Below, one piece after another: positions 30,061 through 50,467 of a stretch of DNA of 64,000 nt. Under the pieces are notes generated by a model, which was given only the letters and a program-made list of their open reading frames with translations, did not search any database and was not told the DNA's origin. Source of the stretch: Patescibacteria group bacterium (GTDB lineage: Bacteria; Patescibacteriota; Microgenomatia; UM-FILTER-40-11); the NCBI GenBank assembly GCA_035530075.1, contig DATKVM010000005.1:87861-151860 (forward strand), in the 5' to 3' direction. Every line of letters starts with the position of its first letter. Position 1 is the stretch's first letter. Position numbers and translations under genes: made by a program.

Positions 30061-31509
30061 ATGGCTGAAGAACCAATAGAAGTTGCTGAAGTAGGAGAAG
30101 AAGCAGAAACACTACCCCAAGAGAGAACAACTGAAAAAGGGTCGTTTAACCCCCCTTGGGAAAAAATCGAACTTAAGGACGACCAGACAGATCTAAAAAG
30201 AACTTTATACGTTTTTAAAGCAGAAGCCTTGGGAGTAAGGGGCAGAAAAGAAATTCCCATCGTTTTTAAGCACCTGCTAGACCCTTTAACTTCAGCAGAT
30301 TTAGGTAACAAAGCAATTCCTACTAGAAAGAGTTTTGACTCTGTTTTAAAAGCTCTCGACTACTTTGAAGTTCCCAGAACACAACTTGCAACTTCATTCT
30401 CGCCCAGGAGCATCCCCCGACCCGGCAATTTCGATTATGAAATTGTTACTGCTATCGCCACCTGTTCTTTATATGACGAAGAAGGAAAGTTAAAGCCTTA
30501 CGATGATGCCGAGGGTTGGGCTTTCTTCACCTCATATTTGATGTCGGCGGAGCCTAATCCCGAAATGGCCGATCAATGTTTGTCAAGATTAAAGCAAAGA
30601 ATGAGATTTTTGCCGATCGAAGAAAGTGGCGATACTCAGTCAACAATGAGATTATTAGGAGAAAAACCATCGTGGGGAAAGATCCCTTTGGAGAAAGTTA
30701 CTATGGTCCATGTGACTAATTATTTACCGAAATTAGGAGTCGAAGGGGCCGCAATTTTACCAAGAATTGACACCGATGGGGTTCCACGCTGGACTATCCA
30801 TTTTTTTGGCAATGGAATGGTAGAAGAACATGGTATTGCCGGGCTAAATCAACAATCATGGGAAATACAAAAATACGTAATTATTGCAAATTTTGCTGAA
30901 GCGGTTTTAACCAATGGGCTCCCGGCCAATATTTTTAGGCCAGATACTTTTTGGTCAATTTTCCCAGGCAGAGGCTTCAGGTTGACTCCGAGAACTACAA
31001 TTATAGCTCCGCTGCCAGAAGTTGAAGGCCTGGAAGAAAAGTATAGTCCTTTTGGTGTCGAAGTTAGGGGTTACCAAGAAAGCACCCCTCTAAGAACAGC
31101 CACATCGGAAATGTTCAGACAAAAAGATATTCCCTGGATTGAAGGGCTCGATCCAAAAGTTGCTGGCGAAGGAGATCATCGTTTGGGAAATTTTCTGGGG
31201 CTCCCCGACAAAAGTCATGAACGCACTAATGAGGGCCATTTAGACTATGGATATGGAAGATGTTGGGAAGCAGTTCTTCTTGGTTCTGAGTACACAACAA
31301 AACCGGGAAGAAGATACCTAGATGATAAAGAGGCTAAAAACATCGCCCCCCTAGGAACACAATTTGGACCTTTAGTTGAAAGAGCTCGAGCGCTTTCAAC
31401 AGCAATAGGAAATACCAGAGAATACGTTGTTGAAAGGCTGAGAAGGAAAGACAATGATAGGATTAGCGAAAAAGCCTTGCAAGTGGCGCTACTATCCGGC
31501 TTCCTTTAA
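30061..31509 (+). CDS. Hypothetical protein (482 aa), no recognisable domain
   Basis: Long ORF with an acidic N-terminus; nothing I can assign from the sequence. Confidence 0.55.
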   Translation: MAEEPIEVAEVGEEAETLPQERTTEKGSFNPPWEKIELKDDQTDLKRTLYVFKAEALGVRGRKEIPIVFKHLLDPLTSADLGNKAIPTRKSFDSVLKALDYFEVPRTQLATSFSPRSIPRPGNFDYEIVTAIATCSLYDEEGKLKPYDDAEGWAFFTSYLMSAEPNPEMADQCLSRLKQRMRFLPIEESGDTQSTMRLLGEKPSWGKIPLEKVTMVHVTNYLPKLGVEGAAILPRIDTDGVPRWTIHFFGNGMVEEHGIAGLNQQSWEIQKYVIIANFAEAVLTNGLPANIFRPDTFWSIFPGRGFRLTPRTTIIAPLPEVEGLEEKYSPFGVEVRGYQESTPLRTATSEMFRQKDIPWIEGLDPKVAGEGDHRLGNFLGLPDKSHERTNEGHLDYGYGRCWEAVLLGSEYTTKPGRRYLDDKEAKNIAPLGTQFGPLVERARALSTAIGNTREYVVERLRRKDNDRISEKALQVALLSGFL

Positions 31510-31680: not shown

Positions 31681-32757
31681 GTGAAGACTGTAATAGAAAG
31701 TGCTAAAATCTACCCCATGAATCTCGCTTTCACCTATCATGACCCAGAAGAAAAATTTGCCGACGATTTTGTCTATTTTTTAGGATTAATGTCGGATATG
31801 AGGGCGGGGGGTAAAATATATGTCCAGGCATCAAGCGCCATGCGTGGTACCCAAGTTTTAAGCTTGCTTGATTCCATCGCCAGAAGATCCCTGGAGGGTT
31901 TAATCCTTGGCATTGCACCTGAAGGTCCTCTCGGACCGGGAAGAGACTTTGAATGTCTTGCTACCGGAATTAAACGGCTTTCCGGCCCAACCTTGATAAT
32001 TGACGCTGACAAGGGAACAATGGTGGGCCGTTATTTCCCTGAAGATTTGGATTGGTTTGTCAGGAGAACTAAAGACGCCTTTAAAGATGGTGACGTTGGT
32101 GTGGTTGAGCTTGAAAGGTCCCAAAAGGCAATGGAAACCTATCCCCCTTCTCAAAGATTAACTGAACCTGTAATTAATGGCGCTTTCGGGAAGTATGCTG
32201 GAATTGAAGCGACAGATGTCACCTCAGGAGCGTTTGCCATTAGCGAGGAAGTAGCCAAGGAATGGAGAAAGGGGACCTTGTCTTTTTCGCCATATCTCCA
32301 CCGCAGCAATTTCATGCCCGAACCCCCTCTTCTTGCCCAATATCTTGGAAAAAGAGTAATCGGCATTCCGGCAAAATACCTGGGAGCTTTTGAAACTCAA
32401 ATTATGTCGTTAGACAGTGAACTTAGACCGAAGAAGTATACCTTTAGTCAAACCACTGAGGAAAGACCAACCTTTCCTCGGGAAAAAGAGAGATGGTTAA
32501 AAAGGCTTGACACGACAATCGACTGGCTCTATGCTTTGTCAGATTATTGCATAACACAGGAAAAAGAGGCTTCCCAAAAAGAAGTAGGCGATTTAAAAAG
32601 AATGGTATGGGAGACACTACTTGCCAAGGATCCACAGGCAGCTTTTCTCCACGCATTATTAGAGGAAGGCTGGATAGAGAAATTGAGTCTTCAAGAGCAT
32701 CCGGGGTTCGGACCCGAATTCTTAAATCATCAAATAAGAGGGGTTGAAAGAAGATAA
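31681..32757 (+). CDS. Hypothetical protein (358 aa, GTG start), no recognisable domain
   Basis: Co-directional with and 170 nt downstream of the 30061 gene; likely a two-gene unit. Confidence 0.5.
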   Translation: MKTVIESAKIYPMNLAFTYHDPEEKFADDFVYFLGLMSDMRAGGKIYVQASSAMRGTQVLSLLDSIARRSLEGLILGIAPEGPLGPGRDFECLATGIKRLSGPTLIIDADKGTMVGRYFPEDLDWFVRRTKDAFKDGDVGVVELERSQKAMETYPPSQRLTEPVINGAFGKYAGIEATDVTSGAFAISEEVAKEWRKGTLSFSPYLHRSNFMPEPPLLAQYLGKRVIGIPAKYLGAFETQIMSLDSELRPKKYTFSQTTEERPTFPREKERWLKRLDTTIDWLYALSDYCITQEKEASQKEVGDLKRMVWETLLAKDPQAAFLHALLEEGWIEKLSLQEHPGFGPEFLNHQIRGVERR

Positions 32758-35194: not shown

Positions 35195-35869
35195 TTAGGA
35201 AATTTTAGCTTGTAGAGAAAAGCGACCCAAAATCTTCGTATTTTCCGGAGTCAAAAATTTGTCATTCAGGACCAAATCCGCCTTGTTAAAAGTTACGCTC
35301 GGAACCTCAATCACTGTCAGGTTTTTTAGGATTTGCTTTTCGCCTTTGGTAAATTCAGCAGAATGTCGGGTCAAACTTCCCCAAATTAAGTCGTAGTATT
35401 CCTCCCTAAATCCCGGAGCTACCCCGAAAGAAAGAAAAATCTCCTCTAATTTTCTCCTTAAAGAACGAATCTCTTCTTCCATTTCGGTAGTAAAAATGCT
35501 AAGCATTCCCCCTCTACCAAAATGAGGAAAGGAGATTGTCCCGGTTATGGACGGGGTTTTTGAGAACAGCTGATTCAAAGTTTGGGAAAATTGCGGAACA
35601 TCCAAACCTTCAAGATTATCCTTGGGCGACCAGAAAAGAGTCAGATGATACCCTTCCGAAGGCTGAAAAATTATTTTGCCTTTTAAGTTTTCCGGAACAA
35701 CCCGATTCAAATCCTCTCTTATTTTCTGGCTTAAATCTGGAGAAAGTCTGAAAACCAAAGACAAAGCCCTTTTAAAATTACTTTCTTCTTTAAAAACTTC
35801 AACATTACCCTCCTCAATAATCTTCCAATGTTCGCCAAGAAGTTTCTGCCAACTTTTAGACAAAGGCAT
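35195..35869 (-). CDS. Hypothetical; possibly 2H-phosphoesterase (LigT-like) fold
   Basis: GYHLTLFW resembles the first H-x-T-x motif of the 2H family; the second motif is unclear. Confidence 0.35.
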   Translation of the reverse strand: MPLSKSWQKLLGEHWKIIEEGNVEVFKEESNFKRALSLVFRLSPDLSQKIREDLNRVVPENLKGKIIFQPSEGYHLTLFWSPKDNLEGLDVPQFSQTLNQLFSKTPSITGTISFPHFGRGGMLSIFTTEMEEEIRSLRRKLEEIFLSFGVAPGFREEYYDLIWGSLTRHSAEFTKGEKQILKNLTVIEVPSVTFNKADLVLNDKFLTPENTKILGRFSLQAKIS

Positions 35870-35872
35870 AAC

Positions 35873-37540
35873 TTAAACCTCAATAATTACCACCAAGACC
35901 ATTGGTCTTCTTCCGGTTTTGGCAAAGAAGAGCTTTTCCAAAAAGTCCTGGACCCGCTCCCGAATTAAGCGATGGTCAATTCTGGCGCGCTGTGGCAGGG
36001 ACTTAAGCGCCCGGTGAATACCCTGACGGGTTTCTTCCAAAAGCTCCAGGTTCTCCCGAATGTAAACAAAGCCGCGGGAAACTATTTCCGGCTCCCCTTC
36101 CAGCTTAAAGGTAGTTTCATTAATCGGCAAAATGGTCACCACAATCCCTTCTTCGGACAAAATCTTCCGGTCACGCAAAACGACATTGCCAACATCGCCC
36201 ACTCCCAGAGCGTCAACCATTATTTGACCAATTTGAACTCGGCCCTTAGTCGGGACCAAACCTTTTTCGTTAAATTCGATGATTTCTCCATCGTCTTTTA
36301 AAAGCACTTGATTTGGGCGATAGCCATTTTTCTCCGCTAATTTTTGGTAGGCGACCATATGCCGGAAGTTGCCCCCAATCGGCACTAAGTACCCAGGTTT
36401 AACCAACTCCATTAATTTGGTTAAATCTCCTTGAGAGCCGTGACCGGAGACATGAATAATGCTCCGAACATCCGAGTAAGCGACATCCGCCCCCAGCCGG
36501 TAGATATTATCGATAAGGTTGTAAATGGCGCTTTCGTTACCGGGAATGTAATCGGTCGAGAAAACCACTTTGTCGCCCGGCTTAATCTTAATTTGCTCAA
36601 TTTCACCGCTGACCAACCGGTCCATGGCTGACCCTAACTGGCCTTGACTGCCCGCTACCAGTAAAGTCAGTTCACTGGGTTTAAAGCGATTAATTATCTT
36701 TTTCGGGACAAAAGTCTCGGGCGAATAGTTAATATACTTAAGCTTCGTCGCAATGCTCATATTTTTATCAATTGAGCGCCCGACTAAAACCACTTTTCGG
36801 CCGTGTTTAATCGAAACATCAATTGCCTGCTTCAGCCGAGACAAATTGGAAGACATTGTCGTCACAATAAATTTTCCCTGGCAATTTTCAATTTCTTCTT
36901 CGAAAACTTCTTCCAGCCTTGCTTCCGGCGGAGTAAAGCCCGGATTTTCTGCTCGCAGACAGTCGGAAAGCATGCAAGCCACACCCCGGCTGCCAATCGC
37001 CCGAATTAACTCCTGATTGGTCGGTGGCCCCATTACCGGCCGCAAATCCAACTTAAAGTCCGGCGCGTGGTAAAAAAGCCCGACCGGAGTTTTAATCACC
37101 AAATGGAGCGTATCGGGGATGGAATGCGTCACTCGGACAAATTCCACCGAAAAATCTCCCACATTGACTCGTTTACCTTCGCCAACTTCTTCCAAATTTG
37201 GCGTAACTCCAAATTCAGCTAATTTATCGGTCACTAAAGCGCCCGCCCAACGAGAAGCAAAAATCGGCAGCCTCTCACCTAACTTTGGCAAAAGGTAAGG
37301 TAGAGCCCCAATATGATCATCATGACCATGAGTAAGAAAAATGGCTCTAATCTTGTCTTTTTTATCTTGTAAATAACTGACGTCGGGAATGACTAAATCG
37401 ACTCCCAACATTTCCTCTTCAGGAAAACCGACGCCGCAATCGACAATAATAATGTCGCGCGCCGTTTCGTAAACAAACATATTTTTCGTTACGTGACCAA
37501 AACCACCCAACGAAACAATTCTTAAAAAATTTCTGGCCAT
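35873..37540 (-). CDS. rnj: Ribonuclease J (metallo-beta-lactamase / beta-CASP)
   Basis: ...IFLTHGHDDHIGALPYLL... and beta-CASP architecture, 555 aa. Confidence 0.9.
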   Translation of the reverse strand: MARNFLRIVSLGGFGHVTKNMFVYETARDIIIVDCGVGFPEEEMLGVDLVIPDVSYLQDKKDKIRAIFLTHGHDDHIGALPYLLPKLGERLPIFASRWAGALVTDKLAEFGVTPNLEEVGEGKRVNVGDFSVEFVRVTHSIPDTLHLVIKTPVGLFYHAPDFKLDLRPVMGPPTNQELIRAIGSRGVACMLSDCLRAENPGFTPPEARLEEVFEEEIENCQGKFIVTTMSSNLSRLKQAIDVSIKHGRKVVLVGRSIDKNMSIATKLKYINYSPETFVPKKIINRFKPSELTLLVAGSQGQLGSAMDRLVSGEIEQIKIKPGDKVVFSTDYIPGNESAIYNLIDNIYRLGADVAYSDVRSIIHVSGHGSQGDLTKLMELVKPGYLVPIGGNFRHMVAYQKLAEKNGYRPNQVLLKDDGEIIEFNEKGLVPTKGRVQIGQIMVDALGVGDVGNVVLRDRKILSEEGIVVTILPINETTFKLEGEPEIVSRGFVYIRENLELLEETRQGIHRALKSLPQRARIDHRLIRERVQDFLEKLFFAKTGRRPMVLVVIIEV

Positions 37541-37589: not shown

Positions 37590-38231
37590 TTATATTAACG
37601 TTAATTGTTCTTCTTTATCCGGCTTTTTTTCCTCGGGCCCAGCCGGCGAATTAAGGGATTTTCCCAATCTTTTTACTTCCGCCGGGATATTCTTAAAGTC
37701 TTCTTTAAGCTGCCGGTTCACTTCTCCGGCTCGCAAAGCTGCCGCCGGATGATACATCGGGATTAAAATTAACCGCTGGCCGGCAGACTCAATTACCTTC
37801 CCCTGACCGTGGTCACGGCTGATTTTCCCCAGGGGCAAAAAGTGATACATCGCAAACCGCCCCAAGGTAATAATTACTTTAGGCTGAATCACATTAATCT
37901 GCCGCTCTAAAAACGGCTGGCAGACTTTAACTTCCTCTGGCGAAGGGTCACGATTATTCGGCGGCCGATGTTTCAAGACATTAGTAACGAAAACCTTTTC
38001 CCGACTAAGGTCAATCGAGGCTAAAAGTTCATCTAAAAGTTTGCCCGCTACTCCGACAAAAGGAATGCCTTTTTGATCTTCCCAATACCCCGGCGCTTCC
38101 CCAATAAGCATTATTTCAGCATTCGGATTACCATTCCCGGGAACAGGATGAGTCGCCGATTTAGCCAGAGAGCAGGTGCGGCAAACCTCCACTTCTTGGG
38201 CAACTTTTCCCAATTCTTTTTGCTTATCCAT
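37590..38231 (-). CDS. Uracil-DNA glycosylase, family 4
   Basis: CRTCSLAK Fe-S Cys and the GEAPGYWED family-4 motif. Confidence 0.85.
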   Translation of the reverse strand: MDKQKELGKVAQEVEVCRTCSLAKSATHPVPGNGNPNAEIMLIGEAPGYWEDQKGIPFVGVAGKLLDELLASIDLSREKVFVTNVLKHRPPNNRDPSPEEVKVCQPFLERQINVIQPKVIITLGRFAMYHFLPLGKISRDHGQGKVIESAGQRLILIPMYHPAAALRAGEVNRQLKEDFKNIPAEVKRLGKSLNSPAGPEEKKPDKEEQLTLI

Positions 38232-38258: not shown

Positions 38259-39323
38259 CTACCAAGTTTGGACAAATTCTTTTAAATTTTCTTCGCCAAC
38301 CACGATCTTCCCTCTTTGGCCTTCGACAATCATTTTAGCCGCCTTCCGGCAAATGGCGGCAATATTGCGCTCCAGCGTTCTGACCCCGGCATCAAATCCC
38401 AAAGGCCGGACAATTTTCGGCCAAACTACCGAGGCAATCTCCAAATCATTAACCGAAAGTCCCATTGACTTCATTGTCCTCGGCAAAATGTAGCGCTGGC
38501 CAATAGTCGTCTTTTCCTCATCATTATACGAAGGCATTTGCATCGGCTCAAGCCGGTCTAAAACGGCCGTGGAAATATTGGTGGTATTGTTGGCGGTCGC
38601 AATAAAGAGAACCTCGCTTAAGTCAAACGGATAGTCAAGATAATTATCGGCGAAGCGTTCATTTTGCTCCGGATCCAGTAACTCCACTAAGACACCCATA
38701 ATGGTTGCTCGTGATTCTTCAACTACCCGGTCGACCTCATCCAGTAAGATAACCGGGTTTTTTGAACTGGCTGACTTTAGAGCCTTAATGACTTGCCCAG
38801 GCTCTGAATCGGGAAACATCCGTGATTGGCCCCTTAAAAAACCCGGGTCGCCCAAACCTCCGAAAGGAATACGAGCAAATTTTCGGCCTAAACTTTGGGC
38901 AATTGAATAAGCCAAAGTGGTTTTCCCCGTCCCGACCAAGCCGACAAAACAAAGAATCGGGGCGCGGACTTTTTCCTTACCGCCTCTGTCCTTTTGCAAT
39001 TTTAAAACCGCTAGGTACTCCAAAATTCTTTCTTTAATCAGGGCCAAACCATAGTGATTTCCATCCAACACTTTGCGGGCAAAATTAAGGTCTAAAATGT
39101 CTTCCGTCTTTTTATTCCAAGGCAAATTGCTTACCCAATCCACATATCGGCTCACTTCTTCCAGACTCCGGGAATAGTTTTCGTAGCGAAAGGCTCGCTT
39201 CAGCCTTTCAATGGAGGCAACGACATTCTCTCGCAAATCCGGGGGTAAATCGACCGCCGCAATTTTTTCTTCCAGCTTTTTGATTTCTAAGGAAAAATCA
39301 TCCGTGGAGTTCTGATTCATCAT
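38259..39323 (-). CDS. Lon-like AAA+ ATPase module without LON N-domain or S16 protease domain
   Basis: ...ILCFVGLVGTGKTTLAYSIAQSLGRKFARIPFGGLGDPGFLRGQSRMF...VILLDEVD...VLFIATANN...LDRLEPMQMPSY parallels the Lon AAA+ core; the ORF ends right after the alpha-helical lid. Confidence 0.7.
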   Translation of the reverse strand: MMNQNSTDDFSLEIKKLEEKIAAVDLPPDLRENVVASIERLKRAFRYENYSRSLEEVSRYVDWVSNLPWNKKTEDILDLNFARKVLDGNHYGLALIKERILEYLAVLKLQKDRGGKEKVRAPILCFVGLVGTGKTTLAYSIAQSLGRKFARIPFGGLGDPGFLRGQSRMFPDSEPGQVIKALKSASSKNPVILLDEVDRVVEESRATIMGVLVELLDPEQNERFADNYLDYPFDLSEVLFIATANNTTNISTAVLDRLEPMQMPSYNDEEKTTIGQRYILPRTMKSMGLSVNDLEIASVVWPKIVRPLGFDAGVRTLERNIAAICRKAAKMIVEGQRGKIVVGEENLKEFVQTW

Positions 39324-39367
39324 GCAACCCCTGTCCTAATCAATGATACCACAAGGAAGGAGAAAAA

Positions 39368-41575
39368 TTAGCGGCGAAAACGGGAACGGTCACCGCCTGA
39401 GCCCCGACTACCAAAGCCAAACGAGCTATTTCTGAAAGACGGCTGCTTAGGCGCAAATTCTCTTCTGGGCCGTCTATCTTCCTCAATTTTCTTTTCCCCG
39501 TCTAAAAGCATTGTTAAGTTAATCCGACCCCTCTCGTCAATTTCGGTTACTTTAACCTTAACTTTCTGACCTAAAGAAACCACTTCGTTGGGGTCTTTAA
39601 CAAAGCCTGCTCCCATCCGGGAAACATGAACTAACCCCTCCTTGCCGGGCAATATCTCGACAAACGCGCCAAATGGTTGAATTCGCTTCACTTCTCCTTC
39701 ATAGATTTGGCCGACTTCTGCCTCTTGAGTTAAGCCTTCAATTTTTTGAATGGCTGAAGCGACGGAGGCGTCGTCCACTCCGGAAATACTCACTGAACCG
39801 TCATCTTGCACTTCAATATTGGTGCCGGTTTCTTCAATCAGCTTCCGAATTATTCGGCCACCCGGCCCAATTACTTCGCCAATTTTATCCTGGTCAATAT
39901 GGACAACCGCTACCCGCGGCGCATATTGAGAAATCTTTTGTCGCGGTTGGGCCAAAACCGCCAGCATCTTCCTTAAAATAAACGCTCGCCCTTCCTTTGC
40001 TTGATCAAGAGTCTTTTCAATTATCTCATCTGTCAAACCAGAGATTTTTACATCCAGTTGAACCGCGGTAATCCCTTTTTCTGTGCCCGTAATTTTAAAA
40101 TCCATATCGCCGTTAAAATCTTCAATGCCAGCAATATCCGTCAAAACCACATAGTCACCCTCCGCCCCCGCTTTTTCACCCGTCACCAATCCCATCGCTA
40201 CTCCGGAAACCGGAGCCGCAACTGGAACCCCGGCATCCATTAAAGATAAGGTCGAGCCGCAAGTTGAGGCCATCGAAGTCGACCCGTTAGAAGAAAGCAC
40301 TTCGGAAACTACCCGGACAGTGTAAGGAAACTTATCTTCTCTCGGAATCACTGGCCCAAGGGCTCTTTCCGCTAAAGCCCCATGACCGATTTCCCGGCGG
40401 GAAAGGCCGCCGATACGACCGACTTCACCCATGGAATAGGGAGGCATCGAATAATGATGAATATAGCGTTTGGATTCTTCCCCCGTCGCACTTTCAATTA
40501 GTTGCTGCAAAGACGGTGCTCCCAGGGTAGTTACGGTTAAGACTTGAGTTAAGCCGCGTTTAAACATTGCGCTGCCGTGAGTTCGCGGTAAAATTCCTAC
40601 CTCAACTTCAATCGGCCTAACTTCTGTCACCGCCCGACCATCGATTCTCTTCCCGACCATAACTTTTTCGCGGAAAATTTTCTTCCAAAAATAATCAAAG
40701 GCCCCAGCCGCTTCTTTTTTCTCCTCACCAGCGTAATCAAGCAAGAAAGTCTCTCGAACGCCTTCCATGCCGCTACCGGCAATCTCTTTCCCTTTTTCCG
40801 CCGCAAAAACTTCATCTAAATGTTTTTTGACAAATTTTTGGGCCGCATTCTTGATATCAGAATTAAGCTCTTTCTTTATAATTTTTACTTTGGGCCTGCC
40901 AACAGCTTTTTGGAGCTCTTCGATTAAAGCAATTATCTTTTGGGCCTCGCTTTTGGCAAATTTAACCGTTTCCAGCAACTGGTTTTCCGGAATTTCATTG
41001 GCCTCACCCTCAATCATCACTACCCGTTCCTTGGTCGCCGCAATTACCATATCCAAGTCGGAAAACTGTTGTTCCGTCTCAGTCGGATTAGTAAAGGCAA
41101 CATTCTCTTTAAGACCCGCCGCCACCGCCCCAATCGGGCCATTCCAAGGAATCTCGGAAATCGCCAAAGCGGCAGAAGTGGCAATAATCGAAAGCACATC
41201 CGGATCATTCTCCAGATCGACGGATAAAACCGTAATCGTTACTTGAACCTCTTCGTTATAATCTTTAGGAAAAAGCGGCCTAATCGAGCGGTCGACTAAA
41301 CGACCAGCCAATATCGCCTCGTCTGAAGGCCGGCCTTCCCGCTTCACCCAGCGGGACCCCTTAATCCGGCCGCCAGCATAAAGCCGCTCGACATATTCAA
41401 CGCTCAGAGGGAAATAACCCAAATCCTCTTTCGGAGTCGCCCGAACCACACTAGCCAAGACCATCGTTTCTCCATATTGGGCGAGAACCGAGGCGCTGGT
41501 TTGCGGAGCAAAGCGGCCTACTTCTAGGCGCAATTTTCGGCCGCCAATTTCACTCTCTTTGGAAACAATATTCAT
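39368..41575 (-). CDS. pnp: Polyribonucleotide nucleotidyltransferase (PNPase) with KH/S1 and an RGG-rich tail
   Basis: 735 aa; two RNase PH domains, KH and S1 at the C-terminus, ...GSRGSGGDRSRFRR. Confidence 0.95.
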   Translation of the reverse strand: MNIVSKESEIGGRKLRLEVGRFAPQTSASVLAQYGETMVLASVVRATPKEDLGYFPLSVEYVERLYAGGRIKGSRWVKREGRPSDEAILAGRLVDRSIRPLFPKDYNEEVQVTITVLSVDLENDPDVLSIIATSAALAISEIPWNGPIGAVAAGLKENVAFTNPTETEQQFSDLDMVIAATKERVVMIEGEANEIPENQLLETVKFAKSEAQKIIALIEELQKAVGRPKVKIIKKELNSDIKNAAQKFVKKHLDEVFAAEKGKEIAGSGMEGVRETFLLDYAGEEKKEAAGAFDYFWKKIFREKVMVGKRIDGRAVTEVRPIEVEVGILPRTHGSAMFKRGLTQVLTVTTLGAPSLQQLIESATGEESKRYIHHYSMPPYSMGEVGRIGGLSRREIGHGALAERALGPVIPREDKFPYTVRVVSEVLSSNGSTSMASTCGSTLSLMDAGVPVAAPVSGVAMGLVTGEKAGAEGDYVVLTDIAGIEDFNGDMDFKITGTEKGITAVQLDVKISGLTDEIIEKTLDQAKEGRAFILRKMLAVLAQPRQKISQYAPRVAVVHIDQDKIGEVIGPGGRIIRKLIEETGTNIEVQDDGSVSISGVDDASVASAIQKIEGLTQEAEVGQIYEGEVKRIQPFGAFVEILPGKEGLVHVSRMGAGFVKDPNEVVSLGQKVKVKVTEIDERGRINLTMLLDGEKKIEEDRRPRREFAPKQPSFRNSSFGFGSRGSGGDRSRFRR

Positions 41576-41946: not shown

Positions 41947-42870
41947 TTACGAAGTAAAGTTCGTCCCTTTAAAAATTTTCGGTTCGAACCAATCAGCCGG
42001 TGGTTTGCTTGGAGGTTGAGGTTTTTCTTCGCTTGCCTTCTTTTCTTCCTGGGGCTTAACAAAAGTGGGGGTAGCCGGCGCTCCCTCCCGCCCCTCAGAT
42101 TTTGCCTTGGGAGTAAAAATCGCTTCCCTTTTAAACGGGGCCGTTTCTTCAAGAGGTTTTTGAGCCCCACTTCTCAAGGCAATCGCCACCGCCTCGTAAG
42201 TGTTCGCTCCTGTTTGGGGTGCCGTTAATCCTCTCGTTCGCCGCCATATTCCCGAAAGCACATTCTGAGCAATATCCACGCTTACCTTTAAACCCAACCC
42301 GACAACTAATCCCAAAGCCACTTCTGACAAAGCCGCCGCTTCTAAATCCACAATATTCAAATGCCCGAAACCAACATTTTGAGGGTCGGCGTCAATATTA
42401 ACTAAAAAACTGTCATTTAAGTTAAAACCCAACGACTGAAGCTGATTTAAGTCCTTAATTCCCAAAGTCATTATTAAGTCTGCTCCCGCTCCCGCGTAAG
42501 CAAAGCCTACTTGATTTCCCTTCAGGGCAGGAGCGCCCACTTTCGGCTGAATGATCACATTTGGACGGTTGTTATCGTCATTGTAGCTCACCTTTTCCAC
42601 CTGGTCGGCCGGATAATTCAAAGAGATAATTAAATCTGTCCCTTGAGCTTCTCCCGCAATCCGATTGACACCAACTAAATGGTTAAATTCCACCGTCATC
42701 GCTGTTGAACAAACTACCGAAACGTTTTTGGCCATTTCTTCCAAGGCCAAAGAAAGCGACAGCCCCGCCGCCACTTGGTCAAAAGAAGGCTTGGCCGGAA
42801 GTAAAATCAAAATCTTTTGGGCCTGATCAAGTCTTTGTCTTAATTCGGGGAAAGGGTAGTCTTGGTTCAT
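41947..42870 (-). CDS. DHH-family-like protein (degenerate; canonical DHH residues not obvious) with a Pro/Lys-rich C-terminal tail
   Basis: N-terminus KILILLPAKPSFDQVAAGLSL resembles the NrnA/DHH start; sits in the infB-...-rpsO operon position where a DHH protein occurs in some bacteria. Confidence 0.45.
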   Translation of the reverse strand: MNQDYPFPELRQRLDQAQKILILLPAKPSFDQVAAGLSLSLALEEMAKNVSVVCSTAMTVEFNHLVGVNRIAGEAQGTDLIISLNYPADQVEKVSYNDDNNRPNVIIQPKVGAPALKGNQVGFAYAGAGADLIMTLGIKDLNQLQSLGFNLNDSFLVNIDADPQNVGFGHLNIVDLEAAALSEVALGLVVGLGLKVSVDIAQNVLSGIWRRTRGLTAPQTGANTYEAVAIALRSGAQKPLEETAPFKREAIFTPKAKSEGREGAPATPTFVKPQEEKKASEEKPQPPSKPPADWFEPKIFKGTNFTS

Positions 42871-42892: not shown

Positions 42893-44320
42893 TTATTTTT
42901 CCTCTAGGCTGTAAGATAATATCATATCCCCTTCTTTAAAATCAACTTTGCCGGCAAAGACAATACCAAATTCTGTGCCCACCACTGCCTCATTAATGTC
43001 TTGCTTTTCCTGCTTTAACGAGGTAACTTTAGTTTCGGCAATAATTTGGTTATCTCTCTGCACCACAATCGGCCGATTGCGATTGATTTTCCCTTCTAAA
43101 ACCCGGGCACCCGCAATTTTTTCGCCTCGGATATCAAAAGCGGCAATAATCTCCGCTTTGCCTAGTATTTTACGATCAATTGTCGGCTCCAATATCTTTA
43201 AAATTCTTTTCTCTAGGTCTCCTAAAAGATCATAAATGATTCTAAAACTCTTCACTTTTACTCCTTCGGTTTCCGCCAATTTAGCCACTGTTCCCCGGAG
43301 AGGCAAATTAAAAGTATAGATTCCCACTCCAAAGGTTTTAGCCAGCAGAACATCTGATTCCGTTACCTCCCCAACCCCGGCTTCGGCCACCTGAACTTCA
43401 TCTGGTAAACAATTTAAAATTGCTTCCAAAGAACCGGCCACATCGGCTTTAAGAATAATGCTTAATTTTCCCTCTGGTTTCGGCGCTAAAGCCGGCCTTT
43501 GACTAACAGCGGCTGCCTCCCCCTCCGGGGGTATTTCACCCAAGCGCCGAACTACGGCTCCCACCGCCGGCAAAGAAGTGAAACCTAGAATCTGCGCCGG
43601 GTCAGCCGGTTTAGCGTCGCTAACTGCCCGACCCCACTCATCTTTTAAAAGCTTCACTTTAGCCGTCACCCCATCCGCCGTTAGCCGGTCACCTTTCTTC
43701 AGCGTGCCGTTCTTAATCACCACGGTTCCCACTGGTCCGCAGAATTTATCGGCTTTAGCCTCAATAACTTCCGCTTCTAGAGTTCCGGCCGGGTCAGCTT
43801 TTAGCTCTTCCATTTCCGCTGTCAGCAAAATCATTTCCAAAAGCTGGTCTACTCCTTGACCGGTTTTAGCCGAAAGGGGAACGGCCACGACATTACCACC
43901 ATAGCCTTCCACTAAAACTCCATTCTCCGCCAGCTGGGTTTTAACTTTGTCAATTGATGCTCCCGGCAAGTCAATTTTGTTTAACGCAATAATCACGGGA
44001 ACATTGGCCTCCTTAATAATCTTAATTGACTCCAGGGTCTGAGGCATCACTCCATCGTTGACCGCGATAACCAAAACCACGATGTCAGCTACCTTTGCTC
44101 CTCGACTGCGCATTTCGGAAAAGGCAGCGTGACCTGGGGTATCGATAAAAGTGATTTTTTTGCCCTTAAACTCAATCTGGTAAGCGCCAATCGCCTGGGT
44201 AATTTCCCCAATCTCTTTGGCGGCCAGTTTAGTTTTGCGGATATAATCCAAAAGCGTCGTTTTGCCGTGGTCAACATGGCCTAAGATAGTCACGACTGGT
44301 GGTTTTTCTGGAAGTGCCAT
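42893..44320 (-). CDS. infB: Translation initiation factor IF-2 (short form, G domain onward)
   Basis: PVVTILGHVDHGKTTLLD...DTPGHAAF...NKID GTPase motifs; 475 aa. Confidence 0.93.
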   Translation of the reverse strand: MALPEKPPVVTILGHVDHGKTTLLDYIRKTKLAAKEIGEITQAIGAYQIEFKGKKITFIDTPGHAAFSEMRSRGAKVADIVVLVIAVNDGVMPQTLESIKIIKEANVPVIIALNKIDLPGASIDKVKTQLAENGVLVEGYGGNVVAVPLSAKTGQGVDQLLEMILLTAEMEELKADPAGTLEAEVIEAKADKFCGPVGTVVIKNGTLKKGDRLTADGVTAKVKLLKDEWGRAVSDAKPADPAQILGFTSLPAVGAVVRRLGEIPPEGEAAAVSQRPALAPKPEGKLSIILKADVAGSLEAILNCLPDEVQVAEAGVGEVTESDVLLAKTFGVGIYTFNLPLRGTVAKLAETEGVKVKSFRIIYDLLGDLEKRILKILEPTIDRKILGKAEIIAAFDIRGEKIAGARVLEGKINRNRPIVVQRDNQIIAETKVTSLKQEKQDINEAVVGTEFGIVFAGKVDFKEGDMILSYSLEEK

Positions 44321-49712: not shown

Positions 49713-50441
49713 TTAGCGTCCTCCCAAAATCTCATCAATTAATTCGCCAAAATAACGCATTGTTGGAAAAACACGATTGAAATTCACTCTCGCCGGCCCG
49801 ATGACACCAATGACTCCTCGATAAGAATCGGTTTCAAAACGATGGAAAATAAAGCCGCAGGGCTCAAAAAGCTCATCACCCAAATCATCGCCCAAAAGTA
49901 ATTCAATTGGACCTTGAGTTGTTGGCCGATTGATTAAGTTCAGCCAAAAGCCGATTTCATCAAGATGGGAAAGCAGAGCTTTAGTCAAATCGATATCAAA
50001 AAATTCGGGTGCTTCCAGGATGTTAGCCATTCCCGCGGCATAAAGATCTCCTCGATCCGTCGTGGCGACGGCTAACTCTTTGGTCCGCATAGCCAACTCT
50101 CGAGTCATTTCCCGCAAAAGCCGGTCTAACTCATGTCGATGATCCCAAACTTTTTCCTTGACCGCGACTTCCTCAGCCACTGAAAGCTGTTGTTCCTTCA
50201 GTAAATTATTAACATAATATTTAAGGGCCAGCGGAGTTGGCATCCGGCCGGAAGAAGAATGAATCTTTTTAAAAAATCCCGCCTCCGTAAGGGCCATCAT
50301 TTCGTTGCGGATAGTCGCTGGAGAAACATTAAGGCTGTATTTCTTTTCCAAGGTGTTGGAGCCCACGGGCAAAGCCGTTGCGATATATTCGTCAATAACG
50401 GCCTTAAGAATCTTGATTTGTCTGTCCGTCAAGTCTGCCAT
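49713..50441 (-). CDS. hrcA: Heat-inducible transcription repressor HrcA (start at ATG 50441 = MADLTDRQ)
   Basis: LTDRQIKILKAVIDEYIATALPVGSNTLEKKY winged-helix N-terminus typical of HrcA. Confidence 0.88.
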   Translation of the reverse strand: MADLTDRQIKILKAVIDEYIATALPVGSNTLEKKYSLNVSPATIRNEMMALTEAGFFKKIHSSSGRMPTPLALKYYVNNLLKEQQLSVAEEVAVKEKVWDHRHELDRLLREMTRELAMRTKELAVATTDRGDLYAAGMANILEAPEFFDIDLTKALLSHLDEIGFWLNLINRPTTQGPIELLLGDDLGDELFEPCGFIFHRFETDSYRGVIGVIGPARVNFNRVFPTMRYFGELIDEILGGR

Positions 50442-50467
50442 TAGCAATGATATAACACGATTGCTAA
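50441..50467. promoter_or_regulatory. CIRCE operator (TTAGCAATG-N9-GATTGCTAA) abutting the hrcA start codon
   Basis: 9-9-9 inverted repeat matching CIRCE TTAGCACTC-N9-GAGTGCTAA at about 14/18 positions; located exactly where CIRCE is expected for the hrcA-grpE-dnaK operon. Confidence 0.7.

What the first reader, a model, noticed from the sequence alone, without database searches (positions are those of the whole stretch)
38259..39323. Stand-alone Lon-type AAA+ module lacking both the LON substrate-binding domain and the S16 protease domain
The 354-aa protein aligns by eye with the Lon ATPase core (Walker A GLVGTGKTT, ...ILLDEVD..., sensor and lid helices) and stops where the protease domain would begin. 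No protease ORF follows (the next gene is udg). It could be a Lon-derived unfoldase or regulator, or a split Lon with its partner elsewhere. The DEVD Walker B retains Asp-Glu, so it may be ATPase-active.
Basis: partly seen in the sequence, partly recalled or inferred. Interest (0 to 1): 0.5.

Follow-up and report, generated by a model that had tools for sequence, protein, structure and literature searches.

The report
Protease-less Lon ATPase of Microgenomates bacteria
This gene encodes a naturally "beheaded and de-clawed" Lon: only the ATP-burning motor of the Lon protease is left. The form is conserved in hundreds of ultra-small Microgenomates (CPR) bacteria, and the substrate-gripping tyrosine of its pore loop is gone, so it is probably an ATP-driven protein remodeller and not a protease.

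Summary
ORF 38259..39323 (-) encodes a 354-aa protein that matches LonA only over its three-helix bundle plus AAA+ module (TIGR00763 positions 252-569 of 795). It has the same boundaries as the engineered E. coli Lon(235-584) fragment, PDB 6N2I.

It is not a pseudogene or a split gene at this locus. The flanking genes abut it, and no Lon N-domain or S16 remnant occurs in any frame of the window or in 1.29 Mb around 86 homologous loci.

It belongs to an old, uniform family found in at least 595 GTDB species representatives. The named ones are Microgenomates-type Patescibacteria, and one member is from Dojkabacteria. None of the members examined has a protease domain.

All ATPase residues are invariant. 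The pore-loop-1 Tyr, present in 59 of 59 canonical LonA, is unconstrained here, and both pore loops are rewritten (…P-[DE]-[AS]-E-P-G). No protease-bearing intermediate with this signature was found.

Gene context is rpsO-pnp-LonAAA-(udg)-rnj in most Microgenomates and divergent groES-groEL in a subclade.

My best reading (about 0.45) is a ring-forming, ATP-hydrolysing, non-proteolytic chaperone or remodeller. A split Lon, a partner of RNA-decay enzymes, or a modulator of another protease remain possible. Whether these genomes carry a separate S16 domain elsewhere could not be tested.

Verdict: a new variant of a known kind, of moderate interest.

The parts
38259..39323 (-). Complete gene for the 354-aa protease-less LonA-derived AAA+ protein (NTD three-helix bundle, AAA+ large subdomain and lid).
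   Evidence: ORF. Pfam AAA plus Lon_lid. TIGR00763 positions 252-569. LonA structures. AF2 model with pLDDT 87.8. Foldseek match to 6n2i with TM 0.85/0.89.
38988..39314 (-). Residues about 4-112. They form three helices (4-23, 28-45, 50-65), equivalent to the Lon NTD-3H / C-terminal part of HI(CC), followed by the pre-AAA helices. Y60 and W63 correspond to Lon Y294 and W297. Y50 aligns with Lon M284.
   Evidence: Secondary structure. Column statistics. Residue roles from PMC7239648 and PMC6722904.
38538..38960 (-). Residues about 122-262, the AAA+ alpha/beta subdomain. It holds Walker A 128-136 (GLVGTGKTT), remodelled pore loop 1 at 164-176 (RGQSRMFPDSEPG), Walker B 191-196, remodelled pore loop 2 at 198-210, the PS1-beta-hairpin at 224-233, sensor-1 N245 and Arg finger R257.
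   Evidence: Alignment of 119 close members, 14 distant members and 59 canonical LonA.
38262..38526 (-). Residues about 266-354, the Lon-type lid (small) subdomain with sensor-2 R315 and the family-specific W301/P307/L308/G309. The C-terminal ...EF[LV][PQ][ST]W tail ends where the protease linker begins in Lon.
   Evidence: Pfam Lon_lid. Column statistics. W354 is present in 116 of 119 close members but not in the distant ones.
39324..39367 (-). 44-nt pnp-to-LonAAA spacer with a GGA..GGGG ribosome-binding site and no terminator-like hairpin.
   Evidence: Sequence. Terminator scan.
39368..41575 (-). pnp (polynucleotide phosphorylase), the conserved upstream neighbour.
   Evidence: Pfam labels. 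Synteny.
37590..38231 (-). udg (family 4/5-type uracil-DNA glycosylase). It is a facultative insert between LonAAA and rnj and starts 27 nt after the LonAAA stop.
   Evidence: Pfam UDG. Present in only some loci.
35873..37540 (-). rnj (RNase J), the conserved downstream neighbour.
   Evidence: Pfam. It lies downstream within 2.5 kb in 52 of 63 evaluable loci.

Best explanation
The gene encodes a functional, non-proteolytic descendant of LonA. It consists of the Lon three-helix bundle plus a complete AAA+ ATPase module and nothing else.

I infer that it assembles into a Lon-like ring or spiral, because its ATP sites need the trans-acting arginine finger of a neighbouring subunit. I infer that it hydrolyses ATP.

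It has no protease chamber to feed, and its pore loops have been rewritten. The gripping Tyr-Ile pair is replaced by a variable residue followed by a conserved acidic P-[DE]-[AS]-E-P-G turn. I therefore propose that it works as an ATP-driven chaperone or remodeller of proteins or protein complexes, not as a degradation motor. Possible contact points are the conserved aromatic at the entry bundle (Y50) and the acidic pore.

Shown: the domain content, the intact ATPase residues, the altered pore loops, family-wide conservation, and the absence of a protease domain at the locus.

Inferred: oligomerisation, ATP hydrolysis, and the remodelling function and its clients.
For: Domain boundaries and fold.
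- The domain boundaries are clean.
- The AF2 model is confident (pLDDT 87.8, pTM 0.83). It superposes on LonA structures and best, reciprocally, on the E. coli Lon AAA+ fragment 6n2i (TMq 0.85, TMt 0.89, rmsd 2.5 A).

Purifying selection.
- More than 120 cluster representatives of 343-381 aa share 62-83% identity.
- At least 595 GTDB species representatives carry a relative.
- Divergent members at 39-55% identity share the same derived signature.

ATPase residues. K134, D195, E196, N245, R257 and R315 are invariant in 119 close members, 14 distant members and 59 canonical sequences.

Pore loops.
- The pore-loop-1 Tyr is present in 59 of 59 canonical LonA. In the family that position is L37/R20/H16/Y15/I8.
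- The flanking P171, [DE]172, E174, P175 and G176 are conserved.
- The net charge of the loop falls from +3.0 to +0.7.
- In Lon, Y398 and I399 grip the substrate (PMC7239648).

No intermediates. None of the Lon_C-bearing single-module proteins among the 150 representatives has the family's combined signature of Walker A G[LVI]xGxGKT plus the Tyr-less acidic pore loop; five Lon_C-bearing proteins have other non-GPPG Walker A variants.

Ring assembly without the protease domain. Protease-free Lon fragments still pack as hexamers in crystals: EcLon 235-584 as an open helical hexamer with ADP, and MtaLon 207-492 as a closed ring (PMC6722904).

Context. In a subclade the gene sits divergently beside groES-groEL (7 loci; 6 of 58). 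In the window it lies in the same gene-dense block as hrcA-grpE-dnaK-dnaJ.
Against: - No biochemical data exist for any member.
- Oligomeric state and ATPase activity are inferred from sequence only.
- Loss of the pore-loop aromatic is also compatible with a non-threading regulatory role, or with a role as a subunit of another complex.
- No CIRCE/HrcA operator lies next to the gene in the window or in the groES-adjacent loci, allowing up to 4 mismatches. A heat-shock link is therefore not demonstrated.
- The commonest neighbours are RNA-decay genes, not chaperones.
- I could not establish whether the same genomes also encode a full Lon or a free S16 domain.
Confidence: 0.45

Rival explanations
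1. Split Lon. The ATPase docks onto a separately encoded S16 (Lon_C) or other peptidase ring elsewhere in the genome and still powers proteolysis, as ClpX does with ClpP or HslU with HslV.
For: - The ATPase site is intact.
- A conserved C-terminal aromatic tail (…[PQ][ST]W, 116 of 119 close members) sits exactly where the linker to the protease domain starts in Lon. It could be a docking motif.
- Two-component AAA+ proteases are well established (general knowledge).
Against: - No Lon_C or Lon_N coding potential exists in the 64-kb window or in 1.29 Mb around 86 homologous loci. Partners of two-component proteases are usually, though not always, adjacent.
- Feeding a protease needs threading, yet the pore-loop-1 Tyr is unconstrained and both pore loops are rewritten.
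- The C-terminal Trp is not conserved in the divergent members, several of which carry long disordered C-terminal tails instead.
Confidence: 0.12
2. An RNA-decay accessory. The ATPase works with PNPase and RNase J, for example by stripping basic RNA-binding or ribosomal proteins from RNA, or by organising a degradosome-like complex.
For: - The rpsO-pnp-LonAAA-(udg)-rnj order is conserved. pnp lies immediately upstream in at least 37 of 58 evaluable loci, and rnj is adjacent in 30 of 63 and lies after one or two intervening genes (within 2.5 kb) in a further 22 of 63.
- Junctions are tight or overlapping: 3 nt in L004 and a 7-nt overlap with rnj in L005.
- No terminator lies between the genes in the window.
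- The acidic pore loop would suit basic clients (inference).
Against: - The whole nusA-infB-X-rpsO-pnp…rnj-ftsK block is collinear in these genomes, so the linkage may simply be inherited gene order.
- An unrelated udg is tolerated between the genes.
- The linkage is lost in the Roizmanbacteria-type subclade, where the neighbour is groESL.
- It is also lost in divergent members: P0155 from Dojkabacteria, P0144 next to M16/M23 peptidases, and P0167 without rnj.
- The protein has no RNA-binding domain and is not unusually basic.
Confidence: 0.15
3. A modulator subunit. It co-assembles with, or caps, a full-length Lon or another AAA+ machine encoded elsewhere. It would tune that machine's activity without acting on substrates itself.
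For: - It retains the ring-interface elements of Lon: the Arg finger, the PS1-beta-hairpin residue Y/F228, and D230 (PMC7239648).
- Its substrate-gripping residues are relaxed, as expected for a non-translocating subunit.
- Proteins with two or three tandem Lon AAA+ modules in front of one Lon_C exist. This shows that stacked or mixed Lon modules can occur.
Against: - Each module of those tandem proteins is no closer to this family (36-40% identity) than ordinary LonA is (42-44%). They are not fusions of this family.
- No full-length LonA specific to these bacteria surfaced. The nearest full-length representatives that carry an organism name (four of the ten looked up) come from Clostridiales, Ktedonobacterales, Anaerolineales and Binataceae.
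- The remodelled pore loop is itself strongly conserved (E174, P175, G176), which argues for a function of its own.
Confidence: 0.13
4. A pseudogene, truncated gene call or assembly artefact of an ordinary lon gene.
For: JGI labels several members 'ATP-dependent Lon protease'. The protein stops exactly at a domain boundary.
Against: - An identical protein occurs on 15 independent contigs from several samples.
- Length is uniform at about 350 aa in more than 120 clusters and at least 595 species.
- The catalytic residues are invariant.
- Functional genes abut on both sides, and no remnant exists in any frame.
Confidence: 0.01

Closest known systems
LonA protease (endopeptidase La; MEROPS S16, TIGR00763), AAA+ module plus NTD three-helix bundle
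   Same: - 36-44% identity over the whole protein.
- The same fold.
- The same Walker A/B, sensor-1, Arg finger, sensor-2, PS1-beta-hairpin and Lon-type lid.
- The conserved Y..W/LPW/DHYGL/KERILEYLAV segment that links the bundle to the ATPase.
   Different: - No N-terminal LON/PUA-like substrate-binding domain and no long coiled coil.
- No S16 Ser-Lys protease domain.
- Walker A is GLVGTGKTT instead of GPPGVGKTS.
- The pore-loop-1 Tyr-[IV]-Gly is replaced by x-P-[DE], and one of the tandem Arg residues becomes Ser.
- Pore loop 2 [FY]RGDP is replaced by SR[AS]TIM.
- YTRE before sensor-2 is replaced by LG[FY]D.
E. coli Lon(235-584) fragment, PDB 6N2I, a laboratory product of limited proteolysis
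   Same: Essentially identical boundaries (query 8-350 aligns with chain 5-338) and structure (TM 0.85/0.89). The fragment is a stable unit that binds ADP and packs as an open hexameric helix (PMC6722904).
   Different: 6N2I is an artificial fragment with canonical pore loops. The protein here is a natural, independently evolving gene product with remodelled pore loops.
Stand-alone HCLR-clade unfoldases and chaperones (ClpX, HslU, ClpB NBD2)
   Same: They belong to the same AAA+ clade as Lon. They are ATPase rings without a covalently attached protease. LonA HI(CC)+AAA+ has been likened to the ClpB H1(M)-NBD2 unit (PMC6722904).
   Different: - Sequence similarity is only generic (Pfam AAA_2 E=0.014, ClpA TIGRFAM E=0.0095).
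- Those machines keep an aromatic pore-loop residue.
- ClpX and HslU have dedicated peptidase-docking elements (general knowledge).
LonC / LonB / LonBA subfamilies
   Same: They are members of the wider Lon family with variant ATPase modules.
   Different: All recognised Lon subfamilies contain an ATPase domain followed by a protease domain (PMC9569914). LonB has a membrane insertion, and LonC has a degenerate ATPase (general knowledge). This protein has an intact ATPase, no protease domain and no membrane segment.
BrxL and other Lon-like defence ATPases
   Same: None beyond a P-loop.
   Different: PADLOC gives only weak generic AAA hits (best is DolB at E=1.5e-5, with no BrxL hit). The context is housekeeping genes, not a defence island.

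Membership tests
LonA protease (endopeptidase La, TIGR00763 / MEROPS S16) | C-terminal S16 protease domain with a Ser-Lys dyad (Pfam Lon_C) | tested here: not met
   Pfam gives no Lon_C hit. The protein ends 3 residues after the lid. A custom Lon_C HMM finds nothing in six frames of the window or of 86 loci.
LonA protease (endopeptidase La, TIGR00763 / MEROPS S16) | N-terminal LON substrate-binding domain (PF02190) plus the long coiled-coil helix | tested here: not met
   Pfam gives no hit. The match starts at TIGR00763 position 252. A custom Lon_N HMM is negative.
LonA protease (endopeptidase La, TIGR00763 / MEROPS S16) | Score above the curated equivalog cutoff | tested here: not met
   322 bits against a cutoff of 608 (TIGR00763). 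250 bits against a cutoff of 891 (NF008053).
LonA-type AAA+ module (HCLR clade) | Walker A Lys, Walker B Asp-Glu, sensor-1 Asn, trans Arg finger, sensor-2 Arg, Lon-type lid | tested here: met
   K134, D195, E196, N245, R257 and R315 are invariant. Pfam Lon_lid has E=5e-12. Foldseek's best matches are LonA structures.
LonA-type AAA+ module (HCLR clade) | Pore-loop-1 aromatic-hydrophobic pair (Lon Y398-I399) that grips substrate | tested here: not met
   Tyr is present in 59 of 59 canonical LonA. In the family the position is L37/R20/H16/Y15/I8 and the next residue is mostly Pro (67 of 119 close members, 7 of 14 distant). The residue roles come from PMC7239648.
LonA-type AAA+ module (HCLR clade) | Hexameric ring assembly and ATP hydrolysis | not testable with these tools
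   This is only inferred, from the conserved trans-acting Arg finger and from crystal packing of protease-free Lon fragments (PMC6722904).
Two-component (split) AAA+ protease | A cognate peptidase gene in the same genome, usually adjacent | tested here: inconclusive
   No such gene lies within about 10 kb in 89 loci or within the 64-kb window. Whole genomes could not be searched.
BrxL / Lon-like defence ATPases | Match to BrxL or defence-system profiles, and a defence-island context | tested here: not met
   PADLOC gives only weak generic AAA hits. The context is housekeeping genes.

The most novel reading that the evidence does not exclude
A previously undescribed class of AAA+ machine. It would be a Lon-derived ring that has given up polypeptide threading: no pore-loop aromatic, an acidic pore, and a conserved Tyr at the entry bundle. 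It would act as the ATP-dependent partner of the PNPase/RNase J RNA-decay enzymes in Microgenomates. For example, it might strip basic proteins off RNA or ribosomal particles in organisms with a minimal helicase and chaperone complement.
Probability: 0.12. Interest if true: 0.75.

Novelty: new variant of a known kind. Interest (0 to 1): 0.5.

Why it matters
Current classifications state that every Lon contains an ATPase domain followed by a protease domain (PMC9569914). Here a whole class-level lineage of ultra-small CPR bacteria keeps only the Lon motor, under strong purifying selection and with its substrate-gripping loops redesigned.

- If the protein is a chaperone or remodeller, it is a natural experiment that separates Lon's long-debated protease-independent 'chaperone' activity from proteolysis.
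- It bears on how reduced genomes maintain proteostasis.
- It offers a compact 354-aa AAA+ module for mechanistic work on what pore loops without an aromatic residue can do.
- Databases currently label it either 'AAA family ATPase' or, wrongly, 'ATP-dependent Lon protease'.

Tried and rejected
1. Frameshifted or remnant protease. HMMs of the Lon N-domain and Lon_C, run against six-frame translations of the window and 86 loci, found only noise. Rejected.
2. Rosetta-stone idea. Tandem-AAA Lon proteins topped the representative search. Per-module identity is 36-40%, below that of ordinary LonA, so their rank is a summed-score effect. Rejected as special relatives.
3. Extensions in divergent members. 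These are low-complexity Q/P/S/T-rich tails without Pfam domains, so they give no informative fusion.
4. Heat-shock co-regulation. The only CIRCE-like site in the window is in front of hrcA (50441-50467). None lies in the groES/LonAAA intergenic regions at up to 4 mismatches. Not supported.
5. Defence-system membership. PADLOC gave only generic hits. Rejected.
6. A CPR-specific full-length 'parent' Lon. Among the nearest full-length representatives, the four that carry an organism name are from Clostridiales, Ktedonobacterales, Anaerolineales and Binataceae. None identified.
7. Literature. Six full-text searches found no description of a protease-less Lon family or of Lon in Patescibacteria within the held library. 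That library lacks most subscription journals.
8. Whole-genome co-occurrence with an S16 domain.

Full report
**1. Observation**

The ORF at 38259..39323 (minus strand, ATG, 354 aa) exists exactly as described. Three independent searches place it in LonA but only over part of that protein:

- Pfam detects AAA (residues 124-259) and the Lon-specific lid (286-337). It detects no LON N-domain and no Lon_C.
- NCBIfam's endopeptidase La model hits at E=1e-95, but only over model positions 252-569 of 795. The score of 322 bits is well below the 608-bit equivalog cutoff.
- All the best PDB sequence matches are LonA. The engineered E. coli Lon 235-584 fragment (6n2i) covers query residues 8-350.

The gene is tightly packed. 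pnp ends 44 nt upstream and udg starts 27 nt downstream. Both spacers carry a ribosome-binding site, and no terminator-like hairpin lies between the genes. The window is a gene-dense, housekeeping stretch of a small-genome bacterium. It contains rpoBC, S12/S7, hrcA-grpE-dnaK-dnaJ, nusA-infB, rpsO-pnp, rnj and obg.

**2. Not a broken lon gene**

I built HMMs from the N-terminal regions and the protease domains of 59 canonical 760-850-aa LonA proteins. I searched them, with HMMER's filters off, against all six frames of the window. The best E-values were 1.7 and 8.5, which is noise. The same search over 86 homologous loci (1.29 Mb) was also empty for Lon_C and gave E≥0.4 for the N-domain. The identical protein is found on 15 independent contigs from different samples.

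**3. A large, old, uniform family**

- The word-indexed search returned more than 120 cluster representatives of 343-381 aa at 62-83% identity. All have AAA plus Lon_lid and none has Lon_C. Where named, they come from Patescibacteria, Shapirobacteria or Microgenomates.
The named records span Shapiro-, Gottesman-, Roizman-, Woese-, Levy-, Ames-, Davies- and Collierbacteria.
- The exhaustive search of 50%-identity representatives adds more divergent short forms at 39-55% identity. Some carry Q/P/S/T-rich low-complexity tails but no extra domain. One of them is from Dojkabacteria.
- All of these share the same derived sequence signature. I therefore read the family as having a single origin, not as repeated truncations.
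- Canonical LonA from many phyla sits at 42-44% identity. No full-length 'parent' specific to these bacteria surfaced.
- The multi-AAA Lon proteins that topped the list do so only because their modules' scores add up. Each module is 36-40% identical to the query.

**4. Anatomy**

AlphaFold2 run on a 17-sequence family alignment gives a confident model (pLDDT 87.8, pTM 0.83). The model has these parts:

- Three N-terminal helices (4-23, 28-45, 50-65).
- Two pre-AAA helices.
- A short variable K/E-rich linker (113-121).
- The α/β subdomain.
- The helical lid.

Foldseek returns only LonA structures at the top. The best reciprocal match is 6n2i (TM 0.85/0.89, rmsd 2.5 Å). That fragment, described as the 'C-terminal part of HI(CC) plus the full AAA+ module', is what survives limited proteolysis of E. 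coli Lon. It binds ADP and packs as an open hexameric helix. A Meiothermus fragment lacking the protease domain forms a closed ring in crystals (PMC6722904). The natural protein therefore corresponds to a known autonomous folding and assembly unit of Lon.

**5. What is kept and what is changed**

I aligned 119 close members, 14 distant members and 59 canonical LonA proteins.

Kept:
- The nucleotide-site residues are invariant in all three groups: Walker A K134, Walker B D195-E196, sensor-1 N245, the trans Arg finger R257 and sensor-2 R315.
- The residues that tie the bundle and the PS1-β-hairpin together in Lon are retained. Y294 and W297 correspond to Y60 and W63, Y456 to Y/F228, and E458 to D230 (roles from PMC7239648).

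Changed:
- The pore-loop-1 motif R-G-H-R-R-T-Y-[IV]-G-[AS]-[ML]-P-G becomes R-G-[QR]-S-R-x-x-P-[DE]-[AS]-E-P-G. In canonical LonA the Tyr is present in 59 of 59 sequences, and Y398/I399 form the substrate 'pincer' (PMC7239648).
- The Tyr position is unconstrained in the family: L37, R20, H16, Y15, I8 in close members, and F, S, Q, N, E in distant ones.
- The acidic turn that follows is conserved. E174 is present in 115 of 119 close and 12 of 14 distant members.
- The net charge of the loop drops from +3.0 to +0.7.
- Pore loop 2 is also rewritten, from [FY]-R-G-D-P to S-R-[AS]-T-I-M.
- Nineteen positions are near-invariant in the family yet differ from canonical LonA. Examples are L129, G158, E174, K180, R199, W301, P307, L308, G309 and D311.
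- Among the 150 representatives, this signature never occurs in a single-module protein that still carries Lon_C.
- Y50 is aromatic in 119 of 119 close members. It aligns with Lon M284, the bundle residue that contacts substrate above the pore. This mapping rests on the alignment and is an inference.

**6. Genomic context**

- In the Microgenomates core the order nusA-infB-(unknown 270-307 aa)-rpsO-pnp-LonAAA-(udg)-rnj-ftsK is highly stable.
- pnp is immediately upstream in at least 37 of 58 evaluable species loci. rnj is directly downstream in 30 of 63 and follows after one or two genes in another 22.
- Junctions can be 3 nt long or can overlap.
- In a Roizmanbacteria-type subclade the gene instead lies divergently beside groES-groEL (7 loci; 6 of 58).
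- In other loci it follows a PfkB-type kinase.
- In the most divergent members the neighbours are unrelated.
- The RNA-decay linkage is therefore real but restricted to one lineage, inside a generally collinear block. It is suggestive of function, not compelling.
- I found no CIRCE operator next to the gene.

**7. Interpretation**

The data show a functional, selected, ATPase-competent Lon motor without a protease and without the classical substrate grip.

My best explanation, at about 0.45, is a ring-forming, non-proteolytic, ATP-driven chaperone or remodeller. In effect it would be the protease-independent activity of Lon made permanent.

The rivals are:
- A split protease with a distant partner (about 0.12). 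The rewritten pore loops and the lack of any adjacent peptidase weaken this.
- An accessory of PNPase/RNase J (about 0.15).
- A modulator of another AAA+ machine (about 0.13).
- A pseudogene or artefact (about 0.01).

The key missing test is a whole-genome census for S16 or other peptidases and for a second Lon in these organisms. I could not run it with the tools and caps available.

**8. Novelty**

The recognised Lon subfamilies (A, B, C, BA) are all defined as an ATPase domain followed by a protease domain (PMC9569914). Full-text searches of the held library found no description of a protease-less Lon family or of Lon in Patescibacteria. Public annotations read 'AAA family ATPase' or, incorrectly, 'ATP-dependent Lon protease'.

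I rate this a new variant of a known kind, with interest 0.5. The fold and ancestry are ordinary. The surprising parts are the family-wide loss of both flanking domains together with redesigned pore loops, and its spread across a very large bacterial lineage.

Noticed in passing
Database proteins P0121 (1113 aa), P0123 (1075 aa), P0122, P0131 and P0132; not in the window: These proteins have two or three tandem Lon-type AAA+ modules in front of a single Lon_C protease domain. Some have a pore loop RGHNRTW..QPG, with Trp instead of Tyr. Their origin is unknown and they could be gene-model fusions.
   Followed up: partly
window 41947-42870 (-): A 307-aa ORF lies between infB and rpsO. It is conserved at this position in nearly all Microgenomates loci examined but has no Pfam hit. 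It occupies the slot where rbfA/truB sit in many bacteria.
   Followed up: partly
window 30061-31509 (+), 31681-32757 (+), 35195-35869 (-): Three sizeable ORFs (482, 358 and 224 aa) have no Pfam match at E≤0.001.
   Followed up: no
window 50441-50467: A CIRCE-like inverted repeat (TTAGCAATG-N9-GATTGCTAA, 3 mismatches) lies at the start of the hrcA-grpE-dnaK-dnaJ cluster. It is the only such site in the window.
   Followed up: partly
Loci L012, L013, L015, L019, L022, L050 and others: GTDB/INSDC records that carry this typical Microgenomates gene block are titled 'uncultured Gammaproteobacteria', 'uncultured Pseudomonadales', 'Candidatus Bathyarchaeia archaeon' or 'Candidatus Methanoperedens sp.'. 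These are probably mislabelled MAG submissions.
   Followed up: no
L016, L034, L053, L063, L082 (e.g. L053:11041-11511, minus strand): In the groESL-adjacent subclade a conserved 156-aa PF04308 RNaseH_like (YkuK-type) gene lies convergently just downstream of the Lon-AAA gene.
   Followed up: partly
window 42893-44320 (-): IF-2 is short (475 aa), with no long N-terminal region before the GTPase domain. This was seen consistently (475-490 aa) in the related loci.
   Followed up: no
L016:2393-2503, L034:9879-9994, L053:9848-10003, L063:6529-6670: The groES/LonAAA intergenic regions share a conserved TTGTCAAG.GG…(T)TAGTCTGCTAAC element just upstream of the Lon-AAA start. It may be a promoter or operator. 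It is not a canonical CIRCE.
   Followed up: no
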